Below, piece by piece: positions 10,161 to 42,595 of a stretch of 56,656 bases of DNA (positions are counted from its first letter, which is position 1; each line of letters starts with the position of its first letter). The notes under the pieces are model-generated. The model searched no databases and had not been told where the DNA came from. It saw only the letters and a program-made list of their open reading frames with translations. Location: IMG/VR virus record IMGVR_UViG_3300036859_000863, positions 1 through 56,656 of that record; one strand, given 5' to 3'. The stretch is from a virus (taxonomy: Duplodnaviria > Caudoviricetes). Both the position numbers and the translations under genes were made by a program.

Positions 10161-10514
10161 TCAGCGCTGCCAGCCGGGATTGCCCTGGCAGTTCTCACTG
10201 AGCGTTACGAGCTGCAGATGAGCGGGATTCCAGCATGCTCGGTGCGGACAGGATGGGCCGCTGCAACTCGCGCCAGCGAGCCGTGCCCTGCGGTGGCAGA
10301 TGTGATCGACGGTCATATCTACCGGGATAGCGCCGACGAAGATCTCGAAGCTGACGCGATGCAGCCGCTTTACGTACTGGCGGCCGTTCTCGTTCCAGCC
10401 GAGCTGCCCGTATCCCCACTTGTCGAGACTGAGGAACGCCGGCCAGCACTCGTCATCGGGACGGCCGCGGGATTCGAACATCAGCCGGAGCACCACTCGG
10501 TTTGGTATGGTCAT
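10161..10514 (-). CDS. HNH endonuclease (HNH_3-like)
   Basis: ECW...GYGQL...LHRVSFEIFVGAIP...VDHICH...CWNPAHLQLVTLSEN; AGGAG SD. Confidence 0.85.
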   Translation of the reverse strand: MTIPNRVVLRLMFESRGRPDDECWPAFLSLDKWGYGQLGWNENGRQYVKRLHRVSFEIFVGAIPVDMTVDHICHRRARLAGASCSGPSCPHRACWNPAHLQLVTLSENCQGNPGWQR

Positions 10515-10593
10515 TCCAACTCCTATGGGGTAGGAGTAGATGCCGTCGGCCGGTCGGCCCGTAGTCCCAGTGCGAACCGACCGGCCCGCGGTT

Positions 10594-11784
10594 CTATCGG
10601 CCGGACGCCTCGTTCTCCGCGGCCTGCGCATGCAACAGTTCCGCTGTCAGTACGAGACGCCGTAAATCGATCGGCCAGCCTTCGTGGTCGATACCCAGTT
10701 CCGTCAAGGTCCCGTTCACCTTCTGGTGGTGGAGCTGGCGGACGTACTCGATGACCGGGGTCGAGTCGGCCTCCGGGAGCTGGGCGAGCAGCTTCTGGAC
10801 CCGCATGGCCGCGGCGTGCAACGCGTGCCGCTCAGCCTCGCTGTCGGCGGGCTGCTCCTCGTTTGGCTCCTCGTCCGCCTGTGTGGCCTCAGGAGCCGTC
10901 GCGGGCGTTTCCCCGGCCGGTTCTGCCTCCGACGCGTCTGCGACGCTCTCGGGGCTGTCTAGCGTCTGCTCGCCGGACTCCAGGAATGCCTCCACAGTCT
11001 CGACCTGCTCGTCGGTCATGTCCTTGGGGACGCGGGTGATGCCGTGCTCGTCGCAGAACTCGCGCAGGATCGCCCGCCGGTCGGCGTCGAGGCCGCGGAT
11101 CCGGTCGGCGAGGGCGATACGACGCTGCCGGCCTTCATCGGGTGGGGGCAGTTCCTGGACGTCAATGGCGTTGCCGCGTTCGTCGACGTCGGCGCCCATC
11201 TCCTCCGGCACGTAGGCGGCACCGAGGAGCACGTCGGCGTACAGCATCCGGCAGAGCTGGCCGAGCGCCCGCGCCCACAGCATCGACCGGGTGTACGCCT
11301 CCCACGGCATGACCTTGCCCTCCTTCGACCGGGCGTACACGGTGCCGTCGTCGCGGCGCTTGCACAGCCCGGCTCGCACGGCGTCGTCGAGCGTGAACTC
11401 GAACTCCATCATGTCGCCCGTGTCGGCCCGCTTGCCGCGGGCGACGGCACGCTCGTGGGTGACGTCCCCGGTGAGACTGTGCCCGGCCCGTCTGACGAGC
11501 GCCTCCATGCCTTCGGGGGAGACGGTCGGCTTGCCGTCGATGACCGCGATGAACCGCATCGCGGTGGTGACCCCCCAGCCCAACTCGCGGCCCATCAGCG
11601 CGGCGGTGACGACGTTCTCCGGCCGACCCCGGTACGCGCCCGGCACCAAGCCGGACGCCGCCATCTGGTCGGCCTGGGCCAGCATCATCTTCCACTCCGA
11701 CTCGCGGGGTGGGGCGACGACGGGCAGACCCTCTGAGGGCGGCTCGGTGGCGGTCGTCTCGATCGGCGGCTCGGCGGCGCTCAC
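10594..11784 (-). CDS. RecT-like single-strand annealing recombinase
   Basis: LVPGAYRGRPENVVTAALMGRELG...IAVIDGKPTVS, W..Y.RSMLWARA and LLGAAYVPEEM; acidic C-terminal region. Confidence 0.75.
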   Translation of the reverse strand: MSAAEPPIETTATEPPSEGLPVVAPPRESEWKMMLAQADQMAASGLVPGAYRGRPENVVTAALMGRELGWGVTTAMRFIAVIDGKPTVSPEGMEALVRRAGHSLTGDVTHERAVARGKRADTGDMMEFEFTLDDAVRAGLCKRRDDGTVYARSKEGKVMPWEAYTRSMLWARALGQLCRMLYADVLLGAAYVPEEMGADVDERGNAIDVQELPPPDEGRQRRIALADRIRGLDADRRAILREFCDEHGITRVPKDMTDEQVETVEAFLESGEQTLDSPESVADASEAEPAGETPATAPEATQADEEPNEEQPADSEAERHALHAAAMRVQKLLAQLPEADSTPVIEYVRQLHHQKVNGTLTELGIDHEGWPIDLRRLVLTAELLHAQAAENEASGR

Positions 11785-30440: not shown

Positions 30441-30906
30441 GGGCGTGACGCCGCCGACTGGACCCCCGCCCTCCGATCGGCCGCAGAACGCGAAGGAGGG
30501 CCGCCAGACGAACTGACGACCCTCCGACACGTCGATTTGGCACTTACAGGTGACGTGGGGAAGGTTAACACCCGCGCAAGGTCGCGACGACATCAAAGAC
30601 GCCTACGGCAAGCCGAGGGGTCACCCGATAACGCTCATGGGAAGCGACGGGAAGGGACCTGCTTACCAACCGAGCCAGCAATGCGCCGAGCGCCCTGGCC
30701 GGGAACACCGGGAGCCCACACCGTTCCAGCAGTTACTGCTGGCCAAGCCGGGACCGGCCGAAATCCGGGGAGGGTGACGCTGCGCCTGAGAGGGACGCGT
30801 TGGGGTAACGGTCGTGGTCGGAGTTTCACGAAGCTCGCCAGCGCAGACTTCCAGTCGGTCGGCTGCACCCGTTCCCGCCCAAGCGAATGGGTGCGGTCAC
30901 GCGCCC
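30441..30906 (+). ncRNA. Putative ~465-nt large structured ncRNA between terS and terL
   Basis: The 5' and 3' ends pair (GCGUGAC 30443-49 with GUCACGC 30896-902; 13-bp 30450-62 with 30850-63), with a 10-bp hairpin at 30865-94 and many internal helices. TAGCGT -10-like box at 30431-36. No credible CDS. Confidence 0.7.
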
Positions 30907-30908
30907 CT

Positions 30909-30930
30909 GTATATCCGCGTGATATACGAT
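30909..30930 (+). promoter_or_regulatory. Palindromic operator GTATATC-N5-GATATAC overlapping -10 TACGAT
   Basis: Perfect 7-bp inverted repeat; GTG start 7 nt after the -10 (leaderless RHH gene). Confidence 0.55.
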
Positions 30931-30937
30931 GGCAGTC

Positions 30938-31222
30938 GTGGCACGGAAGATGATCCAGACCCGGCTCGACGAGGCCCTCGTGACCGCGTTCGACGCCAGC
31001 GCCGAACGGCGTGGGCTGACCCGCACGGCGGCGATCGAGAAGCTGATGCGTCGCCAGGTCGAGGTCGACGCTCGCACCGACGAGTACCCGATGGACTTCG
31101 CCAAGCGACCGCCCGAGAGATTCGTCGCGGACCAGAAGCCGTCGACCTGCAGGCATCCGATCGGGCAGCGCATCGGCGACTCGTGCGCGGCGTGCGGTGC
31201 GAAGGTGTCAAAGGCGAAGTGA
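30938..31222 (+). CDS. Ribbon-helix-helix DNA-binding protein with C-terminal Zn motif
   Basis: KMIQTRLDEALVTAFDASAERRGLTRTAAIEKLMR; C.H...CAAC. Confidence 0.65.
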   Translation: MARKMIQTRLDEALVTAFDASAERRGLTRTAAIEKLMRRQVEVDARTDEYPMDFAKRPPERFVADQKPSTCRHPIGQRIGDSCAACGAKVSKAK

Positions 31223-32667
31223 CGCTGCTGCGATCGGTCGAAGAGGTGGCGGCCAATTTGCTCGACCCGCCGGCGTCCGGTCTGAACGTCGACCCGGTGC
31301 GCTGGGTGCGGGAGCGGCTACGGGCCGAGCCGTGGTCGGTGGAGGCGGAGATCCTGGAGGCGATCCGCGACCACGGGGAGGTGGCGGTGCAGTCGTGCCA
31401 CAACATCGGCAAGGACTGGACGGCGGCGGCGGCGGCGTGCTGGTGGCTGGACGTCCACAAGCCGGGCAGCGCGTTCGTGGTGTCGACGGCGCCGACGGGG
31501 CATCAGGTGAAGGCGATCCTGTGGCGGTACATCGGCCGCATGCATCGGGCCGGGGGGCTGCCGGGGCGGGTGAACCTGTCGGAGTGGTACATCGGGCCGG
31601 AGCTGGTGGGGTTCGGCCGCAAGCCGGCGGAGTACACGCCGGAGGCGTTCCAGGGGATCCACGCCCCGCACGTGCTCGTCGTATTGGACGAGGCGTCGGG
31701 CATCCCCGGGTCGCTGTGGGAGGCGTCGTCGTCGCTGACGTCGAACGAGGGCAGCCGTACTTTGGCGATCGGGAACCCGGACCGCACCGGCTCCGAGTTC
31801 TGGCGGGTGTGTCAGCCGGGGTCGGGGTGGCGGGTGATCCAGGTCGGGTTCGAGCGCACCCCGAACTTCACGGGCGAGCGGATCGCCCCGGAGCTGGCGG
31901 CCGAGCTGATCTCGCCCGGCTGGGTCGAGTCGCGCCGGGCGCGGTGGGGTGAGGAGTCGCCGCTGTTCATGGCGAAGTGCCGGGGTCTGTTCCCGGACGA
32001 CGCCGACGACGGGGTGGTGCCGGCGTCGAAGCTGGCGGTGTGCCGCCAGGAGCGGGAGGTGCCGCTGCCGGACGACGGGTCGGTGCAGCTCGGCGTAGAC
32101 GTCGGCGCGTCGGAGACGGGCGACCAGACGGTGATCCGCGAGCGCCGGGGCCGGAAGGCCGGTCGGGTGTGGCGGCTGCGGACGGGGGACAGCATGCGGA
32201 TCGTGGGCGAGGTCGTGAACGCGGTGCGCGAGTCGGGGGCGACGCTGGTGGCGGTAGACGTGATCGGCGTCGGCTTCGGGGTCGCCGGCCGGCTCACCGA
32301 GGTGCTCGCCGAGCTGCCAGAACTCAAGTGCACGGTGGTGGGCGTGAACGTAGGCGAGGCCGCCAAGCAGCCGACCCGGTTCGTACGGTTGCGGTCGGAG
32401 TTGTGGTGGGAGATCGGCCGGGAGCTGACGGTGGAGGCCGGCTGGGACCTGTCGGGGATCGACGACGACACCGCCGCCGACCTGACCGCACCCCGCTACA
32501 CGTTGGACAGCTCGGGGCGGGTGAAGGTCGAGTCGAAGGACGACGTGCGAGCACGGCTGGGGCGGTCGACGGACGACGCCGACGCGCTGCTGCTGGCGTT
32601 CTACGAGGCGTCGTCCCCTGGGCAGGTGGCGGACTCATCGATGTACGAGAGACCGCTCGGCTGGTAA
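31219..32667 (+). CDS. terL: Terminase large subunit
   Basis: VAVQSCHNIGKD (Walker A), STAPT..QV, VVLDEASG (Walker B), IGNP, LGVDVG, VDVIGVGFGV, ESKDDVRARLGRSTDDADALLLAF. Confidence 0.92.
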   Translation: MTLLRSVEEVAANLLDPPASGLNVDPVRWVRERLRAEPWSVEAEILEAIRDHGEVAVQSCHNIGKDWTAAAAACWWLDVHKPGSAFVVSTAPTGHQVKAILWRYIGRMHRAGGLPGRVNLSEWYIGPELVGFGRKPAEYTPEAFQGIHAPHVLVVLDEASGIPGSLWEASSSLTSNEGSRTLAIGNPDRTGSEFWRVCQPGSGWRVIQVGFERTPNFTGERIAPELAAELISPGWVESRRARWGEESPLFMAKCRGLFPDDADDGVVPASKLAVCRQEREVPLPDDGSVQLGVDVGASETGDQTVIRERRGRKAGRVWRLRTGDSMRIVGEVVNAVRESGATLVAVDVIGVGFGVAGRLTEVLAELPELKCTVVGVNVGEAAKQPTRFVRLRSELWWEIGRELTVEAGWDLSGIDDDTAADLTAPRYTLDSSGRVKVESKDDVRARLGRSTDDADALLLAFYEASSPGQVADSSMYERPLGW

Positions 32668-33022: not shown

Positions 33023-33216
33023 TCGTGACGTTCCCGGTCGAGGAGGTCACCGAGCGGGGGACGGTGCGGTCGGGGTCGGTGACGTTCGAGTTCCAGGAGG
33101 GGGAGCGGATGACCGGCTGGTGGGAGTGCCCGCCGGGGCTGCGGCAGTGGGTGGTGCCGGTGTCGGTGGTGAACCTGGAGCTGACGAGACGGGAGCTGGA
33201 GGACGGCTGTGGCTGA
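33019..33216 (+). CDS. Small hypothetical protein
   Basis: GTGA coupling; fills the gap before the portal gene. Confidence 0.45.
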   Translation: MIVTFPVEEVTERGTVRSGSVTFEFQEGERMTGWWECPPGLRQWVVPVSVVNLELTRRELEDGCG

Positions 33217-34990
33217 CCGTCGGATCCGGCGCCGGGAGCAGCCGAACTCGTTCACGGCGGCGGCGCAGCTGTTGGACGCCGGGAACCGGATGGCGGTGCC
33301 GCGGGTCGAGTCGTGGCAGGACGAGGCGTGGGGCCACTACGACGACGGCGCCGAGGTGTGGTACGCGTCGGAGTGGTTCGGGAACGGCCTGTCGCGGGCC
33401 CGGCTGGTGGCGGCGAAGCGGCCGGTGTCGCCGGGCGACGAGCCGGAGGTGGTGCACGACGGCCGGCCGGCGGAGCTGGTGTCGCTGGTCGCCGGGGGGG
33501 TGACCGGGCAGTCGGCGATGCTGCAGAACGTGGGGGTGCACCTGCAGGTGCCGGGCGACAGCTACGTGACGGCGCAGACCGACGCCACCGAGACGTCGTG
33601 GATGGTGCTGTCCCCGGACGAGGTGCAGGTCGACAAGGCGGGCGGGGTCGATGTGTGGAAGGTGCAGACCGAGGAGAACGTGTGGGTGCCGTTGCCGGTG
33701 GAGTCGCACGTGATTCGGGTGTGGCGGCCGCACAAGCGGCGTCATTGGCAGGCCGACTCGCCGGTCAGACATGCGCTGGCGACGTTGCGGGAACTACGGC
33801 ACGCAAGCGAGCACATCGACGCGTCGCTGCTGTCGCGGCTGTCGGGGTTCGGGCTGTTCCTGTACCCGTCGGAGGCGGTGTTCCCGGTGAAGGAGAAGTT
33901 CGCGAACGAGCCGGACCCGTTCGCCGCCGAGTTCATGGAGGTCGCCCAGCTGGCGATCAAGAACCGGGGTTCGGCGGCGGCGCGGATCCCGCTGTTCACG
34001 CAGATGAAGGGCGAGCTGATCGGCCTGTGCCGGCACATGATGTTCGAGTCGCCGCTCGACGACAAGGCGATCGCGCTGCGGGAGGCGGCGATCCGCCGGT
34101 ACGCGACGGCGGCGGACATGCCGGGCGAGGTGCTGCTGGGGGTGGGGGACATCAACCACTGGGGGCAGTGGTTCATCGAGGACTCGGCGATCAAGATGAA
34201 CTTCGTGCCGGCGTTGGAGCTGATCGTCGACGCCCTCACCCGGGCGTACCTGCGGCCGATGCTGGAGGCGGAGGCGGCGACGGACGGAAACCGCGAGTTC
34301 GTGGCGGACGAGTGGATGGTGTGGTTCGACACGTCGGAGATGACCGCCAACCCGGACCGCTCGGACGACGCTATCGCGCTGTACGATCGGCTGGAGATCA
34401 ACGGGGCGGCGCTGCGGCGGGAGACCGGCCTGGACGAGGCGGACGCCCCGACCGACGAGGAGGTGGCGGCGCTGGCGGCCCGCAAGCTGCTGACGTCCCC
34501 GCTGACCGCGATACAGGGTTTACAGCTGCTAGGGATCGACGCCTCCGACCTAACCCCGCCGGCGTCCGCCCCGGTGGCCGCGGCGCCGCCGTCGCCGAAC
34601 GGCCAGGGCGAAGGACCGCCGGTGGGGGAGGAGCAGCCGGAGGCGACGCAGCAGATCGCGGCGTCGGTGATCGCGGCGGCGTACCCGATCGTGCACCGGG
34701 CTCTGGAGGTCGCCGGGAACCGTGCCCGCTCCAAACTGGGAGGCGCCCAGAAGCTCTCGGGAAGCCCGGCGGACTGCGCGCCGGAGCTGATGCACACGTG
34801 CGCCGACCCGGAGGTGTGCGGCGGCGCCGACTTCCTGCTGGCGGGGGCGTGGGACAAGGTCCCGACGTTGGCCGGCTACCTGGGAGTTGACCCGGAGGAT
34901 TTGACGTTGCGGCTCGACACGTTCGCCCGCACGCTGCTCGCTCGACGCACACCGCTGTCGCGTGAGGCGCTAGAGGCAGCGCTAACGTGA
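33209..34990 (+). CDS. Portal protein
   Basis: SWQDEAW..YD...E, SRARL, RVWRPH.....ADSP, SRL.G.G.L..P.E, A..LR..AIRR.A...DMP.EVLLG...NHW; position after terL. Confidence 0.85.
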   Translation: MADRRIRRREQPNSFTAAAQLLDAGNRMAVPRVESWQDEAWGHYDDGAEVWYASEWFGNGLSRARLVAAKRPVSPGDEPEVVHDGRPAELVSLVAGGVTGQSAMLQNVGVHLQVPGDSYVTAQTDATETSWMVLSPDEVQVDKAGGVDVWKVQTEENVWVPLPVESHVIRVWRPHKRRHWQADSPVRHALATLRELRHASEHIDASLLSRLSGFGLFLYPSEAVFPVKEKFANEPDPFAAEFMEVAQLAIKNRGSAAARIPLFTQMKGELIGLCRHMMFESPLDDKAIALREAAIRRYATAADMPGEVLLGVGDINHWGQWFIEDSAIKMNFVPALELIVDALTRAYLRPMLEAEAATDGNREFVADEWMVWFDTSEMTANPDRSDDAIALYDRLEINGAALRRETGLDEADAPTDEEVAALAARKLLTSPLTAIQGLQLLGIDASDLTPPASAPVAAAPPSPNGQGEGPPVGEEQPEATQQIAASVIAAAYPIVHRALEVAGNRARSKLGGAQKLSGSPADCAPELMHTCADPEVCGGADFLLAGAWDKVPTLAGYLGVDPEDLTLRLDTFARTLLARRTPLSREALEAALT

Positions 34991-35220
34991 CGCTCCGACA
35001 TCGCCGGTTCGATCTGGTGCGAGACGAGGACGTGACCGGCGTGTCTGGTACCGGCGTGGTCGCCCAGGGCGTGTGGTTCCCGGACGGCGATGTCGTGGTG
35101 TTGCGCTGGACGTCGGCGTGGCCTACCAGCGTGGTGTTCCACGAGCGGGGCCTCGATTCGATCGAGGCGGTGCACGGCCACAACGGCAAGACACGAGTCG
35201 AGTGGCTCGATGCCGACTAA
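34987..35220 (+). CDS. Conserved small phage protein
   Basis: RRFDLVRDEDVTGVSGTGVVAQGVWFPDG...VHGHNGKTRVEW. Confidence 0.75.
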   Translation: MTLRHRRFDLVRDEDVTGVSGTGVVAQGVWFPDGDVVVLRWTSAWPTSVVFHERGLDSIEAVHGHNGKTRVEWLDAD

Positions 35221-37981
35221 CGACCATCGCAAGCTGCTGGCCGAGCTGGAGGACCTGGCCGCCGCCGCGGTCGACGTCGCGCTGCGGAACGTGGCCCGCC
35301 GGTTCGCCGTCGCCCTCCGCCGTATGGGTGCGGTGTCCGCGGACGACGCCGCGGTGGTGCGCTCGATGTGGGTGGACGAGATCGACGGGCCGCTCGTCGA
35401 CGCTGTAGAGGCCGCCCAGGAGCTCGGTGTGACGGCCGGGGAGGCGCAACTCGGCATACCCGCCGGGCGGCCGCCGCTGGCGCTCAGGGAGGCTCTGGAG
35501 GGCGCCAGGAACCGGCTGGCGCGCGTCGGCGACGAAGTCTGGCAGCACGCCCGCGCCCAGTTGGTGGAGGGGGTGGAGCTGGGCGAGTCGATACCGAAGC
35601 TGGCGAAGCGGATATCGCGGCTCCCGGATCTCGCCGGCCCGAGGGCCACGGTCGTCGCCCGCACCGAGGTCGTGTCCGCCAGCAACAAGGCGACGCTGGC
35701 GGTAGCCCGGGACCGGGGGGTGGCGACGGTCAAGACCTGGTTGGCCACCGACGACGACCGCACCCGCGAGTCGCACGCGGCGGCCGAGGCCGACCCGGCG
35801 AACCAGCGGATCCCGATGGACCACCCGTTCACGGTGGGCGGCTGGCCGGCCGACTACCCGGGTGATCCCGGTTTGCCCCCCGATGAGGCGATCAACTGCC
35901 GCTGCACCGTTGTGGTCGAGCGAGATCCGGCGGCCGAGCAGGATCAGGAAGTACCGTTGGCGGCGGCCGCGACCGAGGAGGAGACGATCGTGCCTTGGAG
36001 CAAAGTCAAGGGCGGCGGCGACTGCGGAGACGACCAGTGGGCGGTCCTCAAGGACTCCGACGGCAGCACGGCGGGGTGTCACGACACCGAGGAGGAGGCG
36101 GACGCCCAGCTCGCCGCGCTGTACGCGAGCGAGCCGGACGCCGCCGTCGAGCTGCTCCCGCTCGTAGAGGGGCCGACGTGGGAGGGCGTGATCGCGATCG
36201 AGGGGAAACCGACGGAGGAGGCCCCGGCCCGCGAGTTCGCGCCCGGCAGCCTGACGTGGGAGCGGCTGCCGATCGTGCTGCAGTGGGAGAAGGAGGGCAC
36301 CCACGGCGGCGACCACAGCGTGACCGTCCCGGTCGGTTCGGTGGACGAGATCGAGCGTCGCGACGGCGGCGAGATCTGGGGGCGGGGCCGGCTGTCGACG
36401 TCGTCGCCGGACGCGTTGACGGTGACGGAGATGATGCGCGAGGGGTTCGTACGTTGGGTGTCGATCGTCCCGGACGGCATATCGGATGCCGACGTCGAGC
36501 TGGTCATGCCCGACGAACCGCCCGCCGTTGAGGACGAGGAGATAGAGGACCTGCTGTTCGGCCCGACCCCGGAGACGGTGATCTTCCACGCCGGAAGGAT
36601 CAGGGCGGTGACGCTCGTCGACATCGCCGCGTTTATCGACGCGGTTGTAACACTGGAGGAACCCTTAGAAGTAAGCTCTGCTAATGAAACCGCGAGCGAG
36701 AACACCAGCGTTACAGCGGATACTTCGTCGAATCGATGTCTCGAATGCGGAAGCGTGCTGGCTGTGGCCGGGGGCAACGGCGGCCGGGTACGGGGTGATC
36801 GACGTCGAGGGGACGAATCGGGGAGTGCATCGAGTGATGTACGAAGCGCTGGTCGGTCCGATTCCAGTGGGGTTGACGATCGATCATCTCTGTCGGCAAC
36901 CGCTGTGCTGCAATCCAGCGCATCTGGAACCGGTGACGATGTGGGAGAACTTGCGGCGAGCGCCGAACACCAGCGTTTCCAAGTCGTTGCGCATGACGCA
37001 TTGCACCAACGGTCATCTATACGACGAGACGAACACGGTCATGGGGAAACGAGTCAACGGCGAGACCTACAGGATGTGTCGAACCTGCCGTCAGGAAAGT
37101 CGGTTACGTCGCTACGCAGCGGACCCGGAGCGATTCAGGACCTATCAGCGGGAATACCGGCGGATGAGGCGCAACTCATAGCGGCCGGTACGCACACGCT
37201 GGTGTTGCATGACCGGCCGCCGGCGTGGTGGTTCAACGAACCGACCGATGAGACCCCGCACGGCGCGCTGACGGTCACCGACGAGGGCCGCCTGTACGGA
37301 TATCTGGCGCCGTCGAACGTAGGGCACATCTCGCCGCTGTTCCGGGGACGCACCGTCCCGTTGGGCACCGACTACTCGCGGTTCCACCGGGGCGAGGTGG
37401 TGTGCGAGGGCGGCGAGCGGGTCGTCGCAGGGAACGTGACGATGGGCTGCAACCACGCCCCGCGGGTGGCGTCGGTGCCGGAGATCGAGCAGTTCGAGAA
37501 CACATGCGCCGTATTTGGTCGGGTGCGGGTCGGCGAGAACCGGCACGGCGCCTGGGTCGCCGGCTACGTGCTGCCGGGCGTGACCGCGGACATGGTGGAG
37601 CGGGCGATGGGTTGCCAGCTGTCGGGCTACTGGAGGCCGAAGGAGAGCGGCGGCGGGGTCGAGCTGTTCTCGGCGCTGCTGGTGCCGGTGCCGGGGTTCC
37701 CGATGGGGAGGTCGCGGCCGTCGGTGCGAGTCCGGAACGGGGCGATGGTGTCGTCGGCGGTGCCGGTCCGGTTCGAGGACGGACACCTGCACGGCCATGA
37801 CTTCGCTATGGCGATGGCCGCGGCAGCAGGAGGGGGCTGCGGGTGCGGCGGTCACGTCGAAGGCGAACCGGCGATTACCGCGGCGGCGCTACGTTCGATC
37901 GTCTCGGTCGCCGAGCAGAACCGGCAGCGCCGACGACAGGCGGCCGCCGCGCTCGCCGCCCGGATCGAGGCGGGCGTCTGA
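35210..37981 (+). CDS. MuF-like head morphogenesis / capsid maturation protease fusion
   Basis: MuF motifs ARTEVVSASN, KTWLATDDDRTRESH and PGDP...EAINCRC; protease-like WEGVIAIEG...GRIRAVTLVDIAAF; C-domain PPAWWFNEP...GRLYGYLA...LSGYWR...VPVPGFP. Confidence 0.8.
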   Translation: MPTNDHRKLLAELEDLAAAAVDVALRNVARRFAVALRRMGAVSADDAAVVRSMWVDEIDGPLVDAVEAAQELGVTAGEAQLGIPAGRPPLALREALEGARNRLARVGDEVWQHARAQLVEGVELGESIPKLAKRISRLPDLAGPRATVVARTEVVSASNKATLAVARDRGVATVKTWLATDDDRTRESHAAAEADPANQRIPMDHPFTVGGWPADYPGDPGLPPDEAINCRCTVVVERDPAAEQDQEVPLAAAATEEETIVPWSKVKGGGDCGDDQWAVLKDSDGSTAGCHDTEEEADAQLAALYASEPDAAVELLPLVEGPTWEGVIAIEGKPTEEAPAREFAPGSLTWERLPIVLQWEKEGTHGGDHSVTVPVGSVDEIERRDGGEIWGRGRLSTSSPDALTVTEMMREGFVRWVSIVPDGISDADVELVMPDEPPAVEDEEIEDLLFGPTPETVIFHAGRIRAVTLVDIAAFIDAVVTLEEPLEVSSANETASENTSVTADTSSNRCLECGSVLAVAGGNGGRVRGDRRRGDESGSASSDVRSAGRSDSSGVDDRSSLSATAVLQSSASGTGDDVGELAASAEHQRFQVVAHDALHQRSSIRRDEHGHGETSQRRDLQDVSNLPSGKSVTSLRSGPGAIQDLSAGIPADEAQLIAAGTHTLVLHDRPPAWWFNEPTDETPHGALTVTDEGRLYGYLAPSNVGHISPLFRGRTVPLGTDYSRFHRGEVVCEGGERVVAGNVTMGCNHAPRVASVPEIEQFENTCAVFGRVRVGENRHGAWVAGYVLPGVTADMVERAMGCQLSGYWRPKESGGGVELFSALLVPVPGFPMGRSRPSVRVRNGAMVSSAVPVRFEDGHLHGHDFAMAMAAAAGGGCGCGGHVEGEPAITAAALRSIVSVAEQNRQRRRQAAAALAARIEAGV
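36684..37181 (+). CDS. HNH homing endonuclease nested out of frame inside the MuF/protease gene
   Basis: CWLW.G...GYG...VHRVMYE..VGPIP.GLTIDHLCRQPLCCNPAHLEPVT..EN, plus THCTNGH...CRTC Zn finger. Confidence 0.9.
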   Translation: MKPRARTPALQRILRRIDVSNAEACWLWPGATAAGYGVIDVEGTNRGVHRVMYEALVGPIPVGLTIDHLCRQPLCCNPAHLEPVTMWENLRRAPNTSVSKSLRMTHCTNGHLYDETNTVMGKRVNGETYRMCRTCRQESRLRRYAADPERFRTYQREYRRMRRNS

Positions 37982-38184
37982 TGTGCGATTGTGGCGAGTC
38001 GATGAGTCTGGCGGGCGCGCAGATCGTCACGTCGAACACGGCGGCGGCGATGGTCGCCGGCGCGCCGCCCGCCGACCGCTACACGGTGACCTGCCCGGAC
38101 GGCACGTCGACCGGCTACCACATGTGGGTGGAGGCGGCGGCGGCGAAACACCAGTGCGGCGGGACGCTGGTCGAGATCCGCTGA
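37981..38184 (+). CDS. Small Cys-containing head-region protein
   Basis: MCDCG...YTVTCPDG...A.....GG; TGATG coupling. Confidence 0.65.
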   Translation: MCDCGESMSLAGAQIVTSNTAAAMVAGAPPADRYTVTCPDGTSTGYHMWVEAAAAKHQCGGTLVEIR

Positions 38185-38244
38185 CCGATGCTTGACCTCA
38201 CGTCCCTGCCCCGCCCAACTGGTCGCCACCCAGCCGTGCGCTAG

Positions 38245-38991
38245 ATGGCGATCACCGCGACTGACTTGACATCAGGGTCGGACACGACGTTGGCGACCTC
38301 TTACGTCACGGCGTCGATCACACCGACCGCGAACCGGCTGGTCCTGTTGACGACGGCGGCGTCGAAGGCAACGACACCGTCGCAACCCACCGTGTCAGGG
38401 GCGGGTCTCACGTGGGTGTTCGTGTCCGGGTTCGTGTTCGACACCGAAACGACGGTCACCGTGAACATGGAACGCATCGACGTGTTCCGGGCCTTGTCCG
38501 CGTCGCCGGGTTCGGGGGCGGTGACGATCAACTACGGCAGCAACCAGACCGGATGTCTGTGGTCGATCGTAGAGTTCGACGGGATCGACACGTCGGGAAG
38601 CAACGGCGCCAACGCGGTGGCGCAGCCGACCCAGACGGCTCCCGATCCGATCCCGGCCACCCAGGGGTCGCTCACGCTGGCCGCGGCCGGGAACAGCAAC
38701 AACCGCCCGTTCTCGGCGTGGGCGCATGAGACGCAGGAGGCCACCAACCCCCGTTCCGGTTGGACCGAGATCCACGACGCGCTCATGGGCAGTCCCGCTA
38801 ACGGCCTGGAAACTCAGTGGCGGGGCGACGCGTTTGAGACGACCGCGAGCGCGTCGTGGGCTACGCCGTCGACGTTCGGCGGTGTCGCCCTCGAATTGGT
38901 CGCGGCCGCCGCGGGCGGCGGGCAACCGGCGCTCGCCCGTTTCCGTTCCGTGCCTCACGTCCAGCCCGGCCGGGGAGGCGACTACCGATGA
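38245..38991 (+). CDS. Ser/Thr-rich putative virion protein
   Basis: Beta-rich, S/T/A/G-rich sequence (YVTASITPTANRLVLL...); located in the structural region. Confidence 0.6.
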   Translation: MAITATDLTSGSDTTLATSYVTASITPTANRLVLLTTAASKATTPSQPTVSGAGLTWVFVSGFVFDTETTVTVNMERIDVFRALSASPGSGAVTINYGSNQTGCLWSIVEFDGIDTSGSNGANAVAQPTQTAPDPIPATQGSLTLAAAGNSNNRPFSAWAHETQEATNPRSGWTEIHDALMGSPANGLETQWRGDAFETTASASWATPSTFGGVALELVAAAAGGGQPALARFRSVPHVQPGRGGDYR

Positions 38992-40819: not shown

Positions 40820-42595
40820 ATGGCCAAGAACGAGGCAGCGAACACCCCGCCCGTCGTCCCCGAGGACCTGTCCGAACTCGCGTTGGACGAGCTGGTCGCG
40901 CTCGACGAGCAGCTGACCGCCCTGTTCAACGGCATGTACGACCCGGACGACCCGACGGCGGACGTCGACGTGGCGGCGCTGACCGCCCTGTCGGAGGACA
41001 TCCAGCGGGTGCGGGGAGAGCACTCCGAGCGGGTCGAGGCGGCCCGGCAGGCCCGCGAGCAGGTCGCCGCGCTCGCCGCCCAGGTGAACGCCGAGGTCGA
41101 GCAGCCCGACGAAGACGAGGACGACGAGGAGGAGGGCGCCGGGGAACCCCCGGCCGAGCCGGAGGACCCGGAGGCCGAGGTCGTTCCCGCCGACGAGGTC
41201 GAGGTACTCGACCCGGAGAAGGTCGCGGTCGCCGCCGCCGGCAAGCTGTCGGCGCAGCCGCGGCGCTACCCGAAGCTGAACGCCTCGTGGGCCGACGTGC
41301 GGCGCCGCGCCCCGGCGGCTGCCGCCCCCAACGGCGGCAGCGCGGTAGTGACCGCGTCGTCGGACATCCCGGACGTCCCGATGGGTTCCCGCCTGAACCT
41401 CGACCAGCTGGTGGAGGCGATCCACGCCAAGGCGTCGAGCGTGGCCGTCACCCAGCTCGGCGCCAACGCCCCGGTGCACCGGGTAGCGGAGATGCGACTC
41501 GACTTCCCGGAGACGCTGTCGGTGCTCGGCGACCTGTCGGACCCGGCCGAGACCGAGGCGCTCATGGCCCGCGTCGGCGACCAGGGTCGGCTGCTGTCGG
41601 CGATGCCGGCGGCCGGCGGGTGGTGCGCCCCGTCGGAGACCCGCTACAGCTTTTTCAACGTGACCTGCCAGGACGGCGGCGTCGATCTGCCGACGTTCGG
41701 GGTGAACCGCGGCGGGCTGCGCTTCCCGGTATCCCCCACGTTGGCGGACGTGTTTACCGGGACGTTCACGTCGGGCACGAACCCGTGGCTGTGGACCGAA
41801 ACGGACGACATCGCCACCGTGACCGGAACCCCGAACAAGCCGTGCGTGCGGGTGCCGTGCCCGACGTTCACCGACGTGCGGCTGGAGTGCTACGGCATCT
41901 GTCTGACCGCCGGGAACCTCGCCGACGACGCCTACCCGGAGGCGACCGCCAACCAGCTGCGCCTGCTGGAGGCGGCCCACTTCCACGCGTCGAACGCCCG
42001 CTACATCGCCCAGATGGTGGGTCTGTCGACGCCGACCGGGGGGCCGACCGCGATCGGCGCCGCCGGGTCGGGGACGTTCGCGCCGCTGCTCGGCTCGGTC
42101 GAGCTGGCCGCCATCGACTACAAGACCCGCTTCGGGATGTGCGAGGACGACATCCTGGAGACGGTGCTGCCGGCGTGGGCGAAGGGCGCCATCCGCTCCG
42201 ACCTGGCGAAGCGCTCCGGGGTCGACCTGCTGTCGGTGTCGGACGCCCAGATCGCCGACCACTTCGACGCCCGCCGGGTGCGGGTCCAGTTCGTGCAGGA
42301 TTGGCAGGTGCGCAGCGCCGGGCTGCCGGGCGGGGCGACGCCGATCACGGCGTGGCCGACGACGGTCGACTTCATGATCTACGCGGCCGGGACGTTCCAG
42401 CGCGGCAACGGCATGTCGCTGCGGATCGCCATGCTGCGCGACAGCGTCCTGAACGCCGAGAACGACCACACCGCCCTGTTCATGGAGGAGTGCCATCTGA
42501 TCGCCCGGTTCGGGCACGAGTCCCGCCAGTACCGGGTGGCGATCTGCACCGACGGCACCACCGGGGCGTCCGACCTGACCGCCTGCGGCGTCTGA
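40820..42595 (+). CDS. Major capsid protein (with acidic scaffold-like N-terminus; hexamer-type)
   Basis: GGAGG SD; AAGGWCAPSETRY, DLPTFGVNRGGLRF, KPCVRVPCPTF...G.CLTAGNL...YPE, RVQFVQDWQ and NDHTALFMEE; layout resembles my recollection of cluster-B-type actinophage capsids. Confidence 0.85.
   Translation: MAKNEAANTPPVVPEDLSELALDELVALDEQLTALFNGMYDPDDPTADVDVAALTALSEDIQRVRGEHSERVEAARQAREQVAALAAQVNAEVEQPDEDEDDEEEGAGEPPAEPEDPEAEVVPADEVEVLDPEKVAVAAAGKLSAQPRRYPKLNASWADVRRRAPAAAAPNGGSAVVTASSDIPDVPMGSRLNLDQLVEAIHAKASSVAVTQLGANAPVHRVAEMRLDFPETLSVLGDLSDPAETEALMARVGDQGRLLSAMPAAGGWCAPSETRYSFFNVTCQDGGVDLPTFGVNRGGLRFPVSPTLADVFTGTFTSGTNPWLWTETDDIATVTGTPNKPCVRVPCPTFTDVRLECYGICLTAGNLADDAYPEATANQLRLLEAAHFHASNARYIAQMVGLSTPTGGPTAIGAAGSGTFAPLLGSVELAAIDYKTRFGMCEDDILETVLPAWAKGAIRSDLAKRSGVDLLSVSDAQIADHFDARRVRVQFVQDWQVRSAGLPGGATPITAWPTTVDFMIYAAGTFQRGNGMSLRIAMLRDSVLNAENDHTALFMEECHLIARFGHESRQYRVAICTDGTTGASDLTACGV

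What the first reader, a model, noticed from the sequence alone, without database searches (positions are those of the whole stretch)
36660..37190. Complete HNH endonuclease gene nested in the +1 frame of a head gene that remains open
Seen: the 165-aa HNH ORF (36684-37181, lower GC) lies wholly inside ORF 35210-37981, which has no stop across it and there reads as a Ser/Gly/Asp/Arg-rich, linker-like stretch between two conserved-looking domains (...RAVTLVDIAAF and PPAWWFNEP...). I see no intein (C/S...HN) or intron signatures. TAAGCT ends 6 nt before the HNH ATG, suggesting an internal leaderless promoter. Inference: a splicing-free way for a homing endonuclease to invade an essential gene, by dual coding within a tolerant linker that might be removed during prohead proteolysis.
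Basis: partly seen in the sequence, partly recalled or inferred. Interest (0 to 1): 0.78.

Follow-up and report, generated by a model that had tools for sequence, protein, structure and literature searches.

The report
Endonuclease gene nested in open head gene
A selfish DNA-cutting enzyme gene sits inside a phage head-assembly gene in a shifted reading frame, and the head gene appears to be read straight through it with no splicing, at a spot that naturally tolerates insertions.

Summary
A complete 165-aa HNH_3 endonuclease ORF (36684-37181) lies in the +1 frame of a stop-free 923-aa ORF (35210-37981). That ORF encodes a MuF-like head protein fused to a capsid-maturation-protease module.

- **Site:** the insert sits in the module's naturally variable linker. 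In 77 of 77 related viral loci the two flanking domains share one frame with no stop. Their linkers span 30-549 nt (510 nt here). None of 80 loci carries an HNH there.
- **No splicing element:** neither an intein (Pfam, E<=10) nor a group I intron (Rfam, E<=10) was found. Only about 50 nt of the foreign tract lies outside the HNH ORF.
- **Insert peptide:** the host-frame reading is Ser/Ala/Gly/Arg/Asp-rich and modelled without structure.
- **Open frame versus chance:** stop-free in 1.2% of synonymous permutations; 0 of 33 risky codon junctions make a stop; 1 of 47 comparable homologues is stop-free. With the phage's own codon usage the chance would be 32%.
- **Origin:** atypical codons in the conserved flanks suggest arrival by gene conversion from a lower-GC allele.

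Most likely this is splicing-free read-through of a free-standing homing endonuclease gene. The proposed promoter and proteolytic removal are unsupported. It is one metagenomic contig, and translation is untested.

The parts
35210..37981 (+). Host gene: MuF-like minor head protein fused to a two-domain capsid maturation protease module. 923 aa, open throughout.
   Evidence: The ORF has no stop. Pfam Phage_Mu_F matches residues 114-234 at E 1e-13. tblastn finds phage genes annotated 'capsid maturation protease and MuF-like fusion protein'. phrog_859 aligns on both sides of the insert.
35549..35911 (+). MuF domain (residues 114-234)
   Evidence: PF04233 at 52.4 bits, cut-off 29.6
36170..36664 (+). 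Domain upstream of the insert (residues 321-485, ends ...GRIRAVTLVDIAAFIDAVVTLEEP). Beta-rich and confidently modelled. Ser418 is invariant and His365 is conserved in the close set.
   Evidence: pLDDT is mostly above 90. The full-length model hits herpesvirus proteases at probability 1.0, E 5e-3, but which domain matched is not resolved.
36665..37174 (+). Host-frame reading of the inserted DNA: 170 aa (residues 486-655), Ser/Ala/Gly/Arg/Asp-rich, no stop, no predicted structure.
   Evidence: Sequence and composition are. pLDDT is below 50 with no secondary structure for residues 487-661. No Pfam family matches at E<=10.
36633..37185 (+). Approximate tract of foreign, lower-GC DNA. It includes about 35 nt on the 5' side and about 30 nt on the 3' side that encode conserved host residues with atypical codons.
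   Evidence: Host-frame GC3 profile. AT-ending codons are 6 of 13 (p 6e-4) and 5 of 12 (p 3e-3) against a 9% background, and the adjacent controls are not deviant.
36684..37181 (+). HNH_3 endonuclease gene, 165 aa, +1 frame. Its stop TAG (37179-37181) overlaps the host codons for L-I-A of the conserved LIAAGTHTL.
   Evidence: It keeps all 27 columns that are invariant among 32 family members. GC by codon position is 0.57/0.52/0.70, so the periodicity follows this frame.
36672..36677 (+). TAAGCT (TANNNT), 6 nt before the HNH ATG. It is also the in-frame TAA that closes the HNH frame upstream. Its role as a promoter is not supported.
   Evidence: Sequence. The motif arrangement occurs at chance frequency. 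No promoter-like site was found.
37175..37759 (+). Domain downstream of the insert (residues 656-850, LIAAGTHTLVLHDRPPAWWFNEP...), with invariant His706, His749 and Ser805.
   Evidence: Invariant columns among 48 and 36 sequences. pLDDT is mostly above 85. The fold resembles herpesvirus proteases only weakly when folded alone (probability <=0.47).
37760..37981 (+). C-terminal tail: a low-confidence stretch, then a long helix
   Evidence: Model (helices 862-874 and 888-920)

Best explanation
A free-standing HNH_3 homing-endonuclease gene, with about 50 nt of its own leader, has been copied into the variable linker between the two domains of the protease module of a MuF-protease head gene. It sits on the same strand, shifted by +1.

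The insert keeps the downstream domain in phase and the host frame holds no stop. Ribosomes that start at 35210 therefore read through the endonuclease DNA. They make a 923-aa precursor in which about 170 residues are the out-of-frame, disordered reading of the HNH gene. That position carries 10 to about 180 residues in relatives, so the extra peptide is tolerated. No RNA or protein splicing is involved.

The endonuclease itself is made by internal initiation at ATG 36684, probably at a low level. It would spread by cutting HNH-less alleles of this gene in co-infecting relatives.

Shown: the anatomy, the site tolerance, the absence of splicing signatures, and the stop depletion.

Inferred: translation of both frames, function of the long precursor, and homing.
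For: 1. Anatomy.
2. The HNH is a real, intact gene of foreign composition. Pfam and PHROG match it. It keeps all 27 family-invariant columns, and its start and end coincide with those of homologues. GC3 periodicity follows its frame. GC is 0.59 against about 0.70.
3. The site is tolerant. In 77 of 77 related loci that hold both domains, the domains share one frame with no stop. Linkers span 30-549 nt: 55 are <=160 nt, 3 are 161-300 nt and 19 are >300 nt. The long ones are real in-frame domains, DUF6582 in one group. The window's 510 nt is within that range.
4. No splicing device was found. There is no Pfam intein or Hint hit at E<=10 over 36620-37240, no 'HN' in the insert, and no modelled fold for residues 487-661. 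Rfam gives no match to any ribozyme or intron family at E<=10 over 36000-37800. The HNH ORF fills 498 of about 550 foreign nt, and its stop overlaps conserved host codons.
5. Stops are depleted. Permutations give 1.17% stop-free, with a mean of 3.6 stops. Of 33 codons that begin AA/AG/GA, none follows a T-ending codon, although 13% of codons end in T. Homologues show only mild depletion (207 observed, 239 expected), and 1 of 47 in the same GC3 band is stop-free.
6. There is no purine-rich ribosome-binding site before the only in-frame start codons downstream of the HNH (GTG 37202, TTG 37205; read). The downstream domain therefore seems to depend on read-through.
7. The conserved flanks use atypical codons. 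This is expected if the element arrived by gene conversion from a lower-GC allele that already carried it.
Against: - This is a single metagenomic contig, about 74% complete. No isolate exists, and no RNA holder is listed.
- No second instance was found. None of 80 related head-gene loci has it. None of 80 HNH-homologue loci is nested in a gene that reads through it. The HNH has no relative above about 59% identity. Neither the empty site nor the exact boundaries could therefore be defined.
- The stop-free frame is not extremely unlikely. It occurs in 4 of 80 homologues, and in 32% of resamplings with the phage's own codon usage. The finding was also picked out of a very large scan.
- A-ending codons are depleted before the same codons too (1 of 33). 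Stop avoidance does not explain this.
- Low pLDDT in the insert may only reflect the lack of aligned homologues there.
- The HNH start has no good ribosome-binding site: GGAGG lies 24 nt upstream.
Confidence: 0.6

Rival explanations
1. The insertion is recent, and the open frame is luck or simple survivorship. The head gene is impaired or dead in this genome (a defective or decaying phage), or the long precursor is only barely functional. Nothing is adapted.
For: The same relative frame is open in 4 of 80 homologues, and in 32% of resamplings with host codon usage. The case was selected from a very large scan. The contig is incomplete. There is no second instance.
Against: All neighbouring structural genes look intact, with normal GC3. 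The HNH is intact. Stops are depleted relative to the HNH's own codon pool and to homologues in the same GC3 band. The contig has depth 12.8 in its sample.
Confidence: 0.17
2. The module works as two polypeptides. The part upstream of the insert carries a junk tail. The downstream domain is made separately by re-initiation after the HNH stop (TAG 37179-37181) at GTG 37202 or TTG 37205. This would be a genes-in-pieces solution like nrdA/mobE of phage Aeh1, with read-through as a by-product.
For: In-frame GTG and TTG lie 21-24 nt after the HNH stop. Split host genes are the known outcome of free-standing endonuclease insertion (PMC2988022, passages read; PMC3045599, abstract seen in the listing).
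Against: The host frame has no stop, so upstream ribosomes must run through. No ribosome-binding site precedes 37202. The two domains are fused in 77 of 77 relatives. Re-initiation would depend on HNH translation, which itself has a poor start.
Confidence: 0.1
3. An unrecognised removal mechanism exists. It could be a degenerate or novel intein, a ribozyme whose core overlaps the HNH ORF, or ribosomal bypassing. The mature protein would then lack the insert.
For: Inteins whose homing endonuclease lies in another frame or strand exist in actinobacteriophages, including in minor capsid proteins (bioRxiv 10.1101/2025.01.02.630785, passages read). One family member (P0046) carries an intein. The host frame contains 'CLECGSVL' and 'VVAHD', which faintly recall intein end blocks (my reading; the block consensus is recalled).
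Against: No Pfam intein or Hint match appears at E<=10. There is no 'HN' followed by C/S/T. The two look-alike motifs are only about 87 residues apart and do not coincide with the homology boundaries. No fold is modelled. Codon periodicity belongs to the HNH frame, not the host frame. Rfam gives no match to any ribozyme or intron family at E<=10. Hardly any non-coding room is left. No stop codon is available as a take-off site for bypassing.
Confidence: 0.05
4. The inner ORF is not a mobile homing endonuclease. It could be a domesticated nuclease (for example one that helps packaging) or an untranslated relic. The arrangement would then be an ordinary case of a foreign segment fixed in a linker.
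For: No cleavage or mobility data exist. The translation start is poor. The ORF lies in the head and packaging module. A promoter is not supported.
Against: The family is HNH_3, whose phage members are annotated as free-standing HNH endonucleases scattered at many genomic positions. All invariant residues are kept. The distribution is sporadic, with 0 of 80 relatives carrying it. The composition is foreign and the flanks look converted.
Confidence: 0.08

Closest known systems
mobE inside nrdA of Aeromonas phage Aeh1 ('genes-in-pieces'; PMC2988022 passages read, PMC3045599 abstract seen)
   Same: A free-standing HNH homing-endonuclease gene sits inside the coding sequence of a needed phage gene. 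There is no intron or intein, and the host function is presumed to be kept.
   Different: In Aeh1 the host gene is cut into two ORFs whose products reassemble. Here the host frame has no stop, the two parts stay in phase, and one polypeptide is predicted that includes the out-of-frame reading of the endonuclease gene.
Actinobacteriophage inteins whose homing endonuclease is encoded in another frame or on the other strand (Gosselin, Arsenault and Gogarten, bioRxiv 10.1101/2025.01.02.630785; passages read, supplements not seen)
   Same: An endonuclease ORF overlaps a host ORF that stays open across it. The host-frame reading of that stretch has no recognisable structure. Both occur in high-GC actinobacteriophage-like genomes, and minor capsid (MuF-type) proteins are among the hosts.
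   Different: In those cases the out-of-frame stretch lies inside an intein and is spliced out of the protein. Here no intein blocks flank it, so the stretch should remain in the precursor. Their out-of-frame enzyme is endonuclease VII-like, not HNH_3.
Intergenic free-standing HNH_3 endonuclease genes of actinobacteriophages (GenBank annotations)
   Same: Same protein family, at 39-47% identity. Similar size and conserved residues.
   Different: Those lie between genes or overlap neighbours by a few bases. In 80 homologue loci none is nested in a gene that reads through it.
'Capsid maturation protease and MuF-like fusion protein' of Gordonia and Mycobacterium phages, for example Rosebush gp13 (annotations)
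   Same: Same domain order. Both sides of the insert align at about 27-31% identity.
   Different: Those have a continuous short linker, spanning about 1.8 kb for the residues that take 2.3 kb here. In Microbacterium phage Nicole72 the MuF part and the protease are separate genes.

Membership tests
HNH_3 (PF13392) endonucleases | Match to the family model above the curated cut-off | tested here: met
   48.8 bits against a cut-off of 24.8, residues 47-91. phrog_826 matches at E 1e-44.
HNH_3 (PF13392) endonucleases | Conserved catalytic and metal-binding residues present; full length | tested here: met
   The window's protein shares all 27 columns that are invariant in the 32-sequence alignment, including D67, H68, H80, N89 and the Cys/His pairs. 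Its start and end match those of homologues.
Homing endonuclease gene (mobile) | Site-specific cleavage of the allele that lacks it | not testable with these tools
   Needs purified protein and a substrate.
Homing endonuclease gene (mobile) | Presence/absence polymorphism at the same site among close relatives, with converted flanks | tested here: inconclusive
   It is absent from 80 of 80 related loci, but the nearest is only 57% identical in protein. Flank codon usage is atypical. No empty-site contig appears in the one run that holds it.
Intein | Hint or splicing domain in the host frame | tested here: not met
   No Pfam family matches at E<=10 for 36620-37240. No secondary structure is modelled for residues 487-661.
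Intein | Nucleophile at the N-terminal junction, and terminal Asn (usually His-Asn) followed by Cys/Ser/Thr | tested here: not met
   No 'HN' occurs anywhere in the 170-aa insert. The junction residues do not fit (aligned boundaries). The motif definition is recalled.
Group I intron with an endonuclease ORF | Ribozyme core detectable | tested here: not met
   Rfam lists five matches at E<=10 over 36000-37800 on both strands (three snoRNA and two small-RNA families, all far below their gathering scores). None is an intron or ribozyme family.
Group I intron with an endonuclease ORF | Room for about 200 nt or more of structured RNA outside or around the ORF | tested here: not met
   The ORF takes 498 of about 550 foreign nt. 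Its stop overlaps conserved host codons. The size figure is recalled.
Genes-in-pieces (Aeh1 nrdA/mobE type) | Host gene split into two ORFs by a stop and a new start | tested here: not met
   The host frame has no stop across the insert. No ribosome-binding site precedes the downstream in-frame GTG and TTG.
MuF-capsid maturation protease fusion | MuF domain followed by the protease module in one ORF | tested here: met
   PF04233. Homologues carry that annotation. phrog_859 aligns on both sides of the insert. One of 48 family members matches Peptidase_S78.
MuF-capsid maturation protease fusion | Assemblin/HK97-type protease fold with conserved His and Ser | tested here: inconclusive
   The full-length model hits herpesvirus proteases at probability 1.0, E 5e-3, with TM only 0.3-0.4. 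The downstream domain alone gives probability <=0.47. His and Ser are conserved in both domains. Which domain is catalytic was not resolved.
Overlapping (dual-coding) genes | Both frames translated | not testable with these tools
   No RNA holder is listed. Needs proteomics or ribosome profiling.
Overlapping (dual-coding) genes | Constraint visible in both frames | tested here: inconclusive
   The HNH frame shows family conservation. The host frame shows only stop avoidance, at p about 0.01-0.02, from a single sequence.

The most novel reading that the evidence does not exclude
Homing endonuclease genes can colonise an essential structural gene with no intron or intein at all. They do so by lying out of frame in a linker that tolerates any peptide, and selection then purges stop codons from the host frame. 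The converted flanks suggest that this nested cassette already moves between alleles of the MuF-protease gene in different phages. Because gene callers skip nested ORFs, such elements would be systematically missing from protein catalogues.
Probability: 0.4. Interest if true: 0.65.

Novelty: new variant of a known kind. Interest (0 to 1): 0.52.

Why it matters
Homing endonuclease genes are thought to survive in coding DNA in one of three ways. They ride in a self-splicing intron or intein, they stay between genes, or, rarely, they split a gene into pieces. This locus suggests a fourth and simpler way: out-of-frame residence in a tolerant linker, with the host protein simply carrying the nonsense-free reading of the selfish gene.

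If this is general, it would:
- widen the set of sites open to these elements;
- give a plausible first step towards the out-of-frame endonucleases recently reported inside inteins;
- expose a blind spot of annotation. The window's HNH is absent from the 5.8-billion-protein collection although the host ORF is present.

It also marks a position in the MuF-protease protein where large insertions may be tolerated.

Tried and rejected
- **Near-identical DNA in GenBank phages:** no match.
- **Close relatives of the HNH:** viral contigs gave none. Metagenome contigs gave a best of 42% over the full length. The protein collection gave at most about 59% over part of the length. The empty site and exact boundaries therefore stayed undefined.
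- **Host-gene relatives in bacterial genomes:** only 4 distant loci, in Micromonospora, Iamia, Nonomuraea and an Eggerthellaceae MAG.
- **PDB by sequence profile:** nothing relevant.
- **Are the two flanking domains a tandem duplication?** hhalign gave probability 4%; only the last strand motif aligns. Rejected.
- **Fold of the downstream domain alone:** only weak herpesvirus-protease hits.
- **Promoter and terminator scan of 36300-37500:** none found.
- **RNA fold around the HNH start:** z-score -1.19, not notable.
- **Sequencing runs:** one DNA holder, probably the source sample, and no RNA holder listed. Laid contigs showed no credible joint across the insert. The two listed joints have 21-letter sides and look like stray matches.
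- **Literature:** searches found no report of a free-standing endonuclease gene nested out of frame in an unsplit, intein-less host gene. This covers only the open-access library searched. The supplements of the intein preprint, which might hold such a case, were not seen.
Full report
**Setting**

The window is a single virus record of 56,656 bp, judged about 74% complete, with about 70% GC. The head-gene order is as follows:
- large terminase, 30814-32667
- portal, 33209-34990
- a small ORF, 34987-35220
- the gene in question, 35210-37981
- three unassigned ORFs
- the major head protein, 40820-42595

The few relatives of the gene in bacterial genomes are in Actinomycetota (Micromonospora, Iamia, Nonomuraea) and an Eggerthellaceae MAG. 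An actinobacterial host is therefore likely, by inference.

- One search lists an ORF with no stop from 35090 to 37981. It is 923 aa from the ATG at 35210, which matches the start of the nearest homologue.
- One search also lists a 165-aa ORF at 36684-37181 on the same strand, one base out of phase (+1).
- The inner ORF is an HNH_3 endonuclease. Pfam gives 48.8 bits against a cut-off of 24.8. phrog_826 gives E 1e-44 over residues 3-154.
- In an alignment with 31 homologues it shares every one of the 27 invariant columns. It also starts and ends where they do.
- GC drops to 0.58-0.61 over 36500-37200.
- Codon-position GC in the insert is 0.57/0.52/0.70 in the HNH frame and 0.69/0.57/0.52 in the host frame. 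The evolved coding frame of this DNA is therefore the HNH frame.

**What the host gene is**

- Residues 114-234 are a MuF domain.
- tblastn against GenBank phages finds more than 1,000 records below 60% identity. The best hits are annotated 'capsid maturation protease and MuF-like fusion protein' or 'MuF-like minor capsid protein'. They align to both sides of the insert within a single gene.
- phrog_859 aligns to residues 94-485 at profile positions 144-534. It resumes after the insert at positions 554-779.
- In Microbacterium phage Nicole72 the MuF part is a separate gene, and the rest is one 'capsid maturation protease' gene. The insert therefore lies inside the protease module.
- An AlphaFold model (48-row alignment, mean pLDDT 71.6) gives confident folds for residues 321-485 and 662-830.
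- Foldseek places the whole model nearest to herpesvirus proteases at probability 1.0 and E 5e-3, but TM is only 0.3-0.4.
- The downstream domain folded alone gives the same hits only weakly, at probability <=0.47.
- One of 48 family members matches Pfam Peptidase_S78.
- Both domains keep a conserved His and Ser. They are not detectably homologous to each other.
- I could not decide which domain is catalytic.

**The site is a natural hot spot for length variation**

Of 80 related viral loci, 77 hold both domains; the other three end at a contig edge. In all 77 the domains share one frame, with no stop from the start of the first to the end of the second. The spacer ranges from 30 to 549 nt, measured between the same anchor points that give 510 nt in the window:
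- 55 loci have 160 nt or less
- 3 loci have 161-300 nt
- 19 loci have more than 300 nt

The long spacers encode real in-frame domains. One is a conserved module of about 110-130 aa with no Pfam match. In one group the domain is DUF6582. None of the 80 loci has an HNH in the spacer. The nearest relative is 57% identical overall and 76-77% in the flanking domains, and it carries the 110-aa module there.

**No splicing device**

- The host-frame translation of 36620-37240 matches no Pfam family even at E<=10.
- The 170-aa insert contains no His-Asn. It is 48% Ser+Gly+Asp+Arg, against 28% in the rest of the protein.
- The model gives it pLDDT of about 30 and no secondary structure. The alignment has no homologues there, so this is weak evidence on its own.
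- Rfam at E<=10 over 36000-37800 lists five weak matches (three snoRNA and two small-RNA families, all far below their gathering scores). None is an intron or ribozyme family.
- The foreign tract is about 550 nt, and the ORF takes 498 of it.
- The HNH stop TAG (37179-37181) overlaps the host codons for the conserved L-I-A-A-G-T-H-T-L.
- Ribosomal bypassing needs a take-off stop, and none exists in the host frame.

**Is the open host frame more than chance?**

Results for:
- I permuted synonymous codons within the HNH ORF. The host frame was stop-free in 1.17% of 20,000 trials, with a mean of 3.6 stops.
- Stops in that frame need a T-ending codon followed by a codon that begins AA, AG or GA. 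There are 33 such following codons, and none is preceded by a T-ending codon, although 13% of codons end in T.
- In 47 homologues with GC3 of 0.60-0.80 this junction is only mildly depleted (207 observed, 239 expected). One of the 47 is stop-free over the aligned core to its stop codon.

Results against a strong claim:
- Over whole ORFs, 4 of 80 homologues have the same relative frame open.
- If the HNH used the phage's own codons (GC3 0.9), 32% of resamplings would be open.
- A-ending codons are also depleted at the same junctions (1 of 33), which stop avoidance does not explain.
- The case was noticed because it is unusual.

I read the depletion as real but modest evidence, at p of about 0.01-0.02. 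It fits either selection or survivorship, since only stop-free insertions leave a working head gene.

**Origin**

- Host-frame GC3 is 0.9-1.0 up to about 36620 and again from about 37190.
- The 13 codons that encode the conserved end of the upstream domain (AFIDAVVTLEEPL) have 6 A/T-ending codons (p 6e-4).
- The 12 codons that encode IPADEAQLIAAG have 5 (p 3e-3).
- The background is 9%, and the adjacent controls are normal.
- So DNA that encodes host-type residues on both sides has the foreign codon style. This is what co-conversion during homing from a lower-GC allele of the same gene would leave.
- It is an inference from one sequence.

**Expression of the HNH**

- The frame is closed by TAA at 36672-36674, and ATG 36684 is the first start.
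- GGAGG lies 24 nt upstream, and nearer the start there is only a weak purine run.
However, TANNNT-N6-ATG occurs twice in the window against 1.78 expected, and the consensus scan finds no promoter.
- The local RNA fold is unremarkable.
- Low, poorly defined expression is typical of such genes (PMC2988022, passages read), but it is not shown here.

**Assembly**

A contig of 55,110 bp at depth 12.8 from an independent assembler covers 35500-38300 without a difference. It comes from what may be the source sample. No contig joins across the insert credibly.

**Comparison with what is known**

- Free-standing endonuclease genes normally sit between genes or overlap them by a few bases.
- In phage Aeh1, mobE lies inside nrdA and splits it into two ORFs (PMC2988022; PMC3045599, abstract only).
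- A 2025 preprint reports actinobacteriophage inteins whose endonuclease is encoded in another frame or strand, with the host frame open and structureless across it. Minor capsid proteins are among the hosts (10.1101/2025.01.02.630785; passages read, supplements not seen).
- The present locus combines features of both. It has an out-of-frame nested endonuclease gene and an unbroken host frame, but no intein to remove the extra peptide.
- Five literature searches found no report of that combination in the open-access library.

**Verdict**

The most likely reading (0.6) is splicing-free read-through of a homing endonuclease gene lodged in a tolerant linker. I rate it a new variant of a known kind. 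Interest is moderate, because it rests on one uncultured contig and expression is untested.

Noticed in passing
window 10161-10631 (-): A second, divergent HNH_3-like ORF of 156 aa (40% identity to the nested one over residues 33-72). It stands free between genes.
   Followed up: partly
L003:5282-5740, L018:1618-2148, L068:4787-5185 and 13 other loci; L051/L053/L054:5020-5286: In many relatives the same linker site holds a conserved in-frame module of about 110-130 aa (motifs H.T.TSD..WD ... PHH ... GAANL) with no Pfam match. In one group it holds DUF6582. The site seems to be a general landing place for extra domains.
   Followed up: partly
proteins P0003-P0047: Members of this MuF-protease family carry varied extra domains: 2'-5' RNA ligase/LigT in 20 of 48, an ADP-ribosyltransferase domain in one or two, and an intein in one (P0046).
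   Followed up: no
window 36684-37181: The nested HNH is absent from the 5.8-billion-protein collection, where the best hit is 43-59% identical. The enclosing ORF is present as P0001. Gene callers evidently skipped the inner ORF, so nested endonuclease genes may be under-counted in protein catalogues.
   Followed up: partly
window 36684-37181: Codons that precede AA/AG/GA-initial codons end in G or C in 32 of 33 cases. A-ending codons are depleted as well as T-ending ones, although A would not create a stop. In the host frame this avoids AAA, AAG and AGA. Unexplained.
   Followed up: partly
window 35870-35960 and 37790-37910: There are two further dips of host-frame GC3 (0.65-0.75 against about 0.9) inside the same gene. 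They lie at or near poorly modelled stretches (residues 246-260 and 848-890). Cause unknown.
   Followed up: no
window 36170-36664 and 37175-37759: Both domains that flank the insert end in a similar strand motif (RIRAVTLVDIAAF / ELFSALLVPVPGF), and each keeps a conserved His and Ser. Profile comparison finds no overall homology. Which one is the active protease is open.
   Followed up: partly
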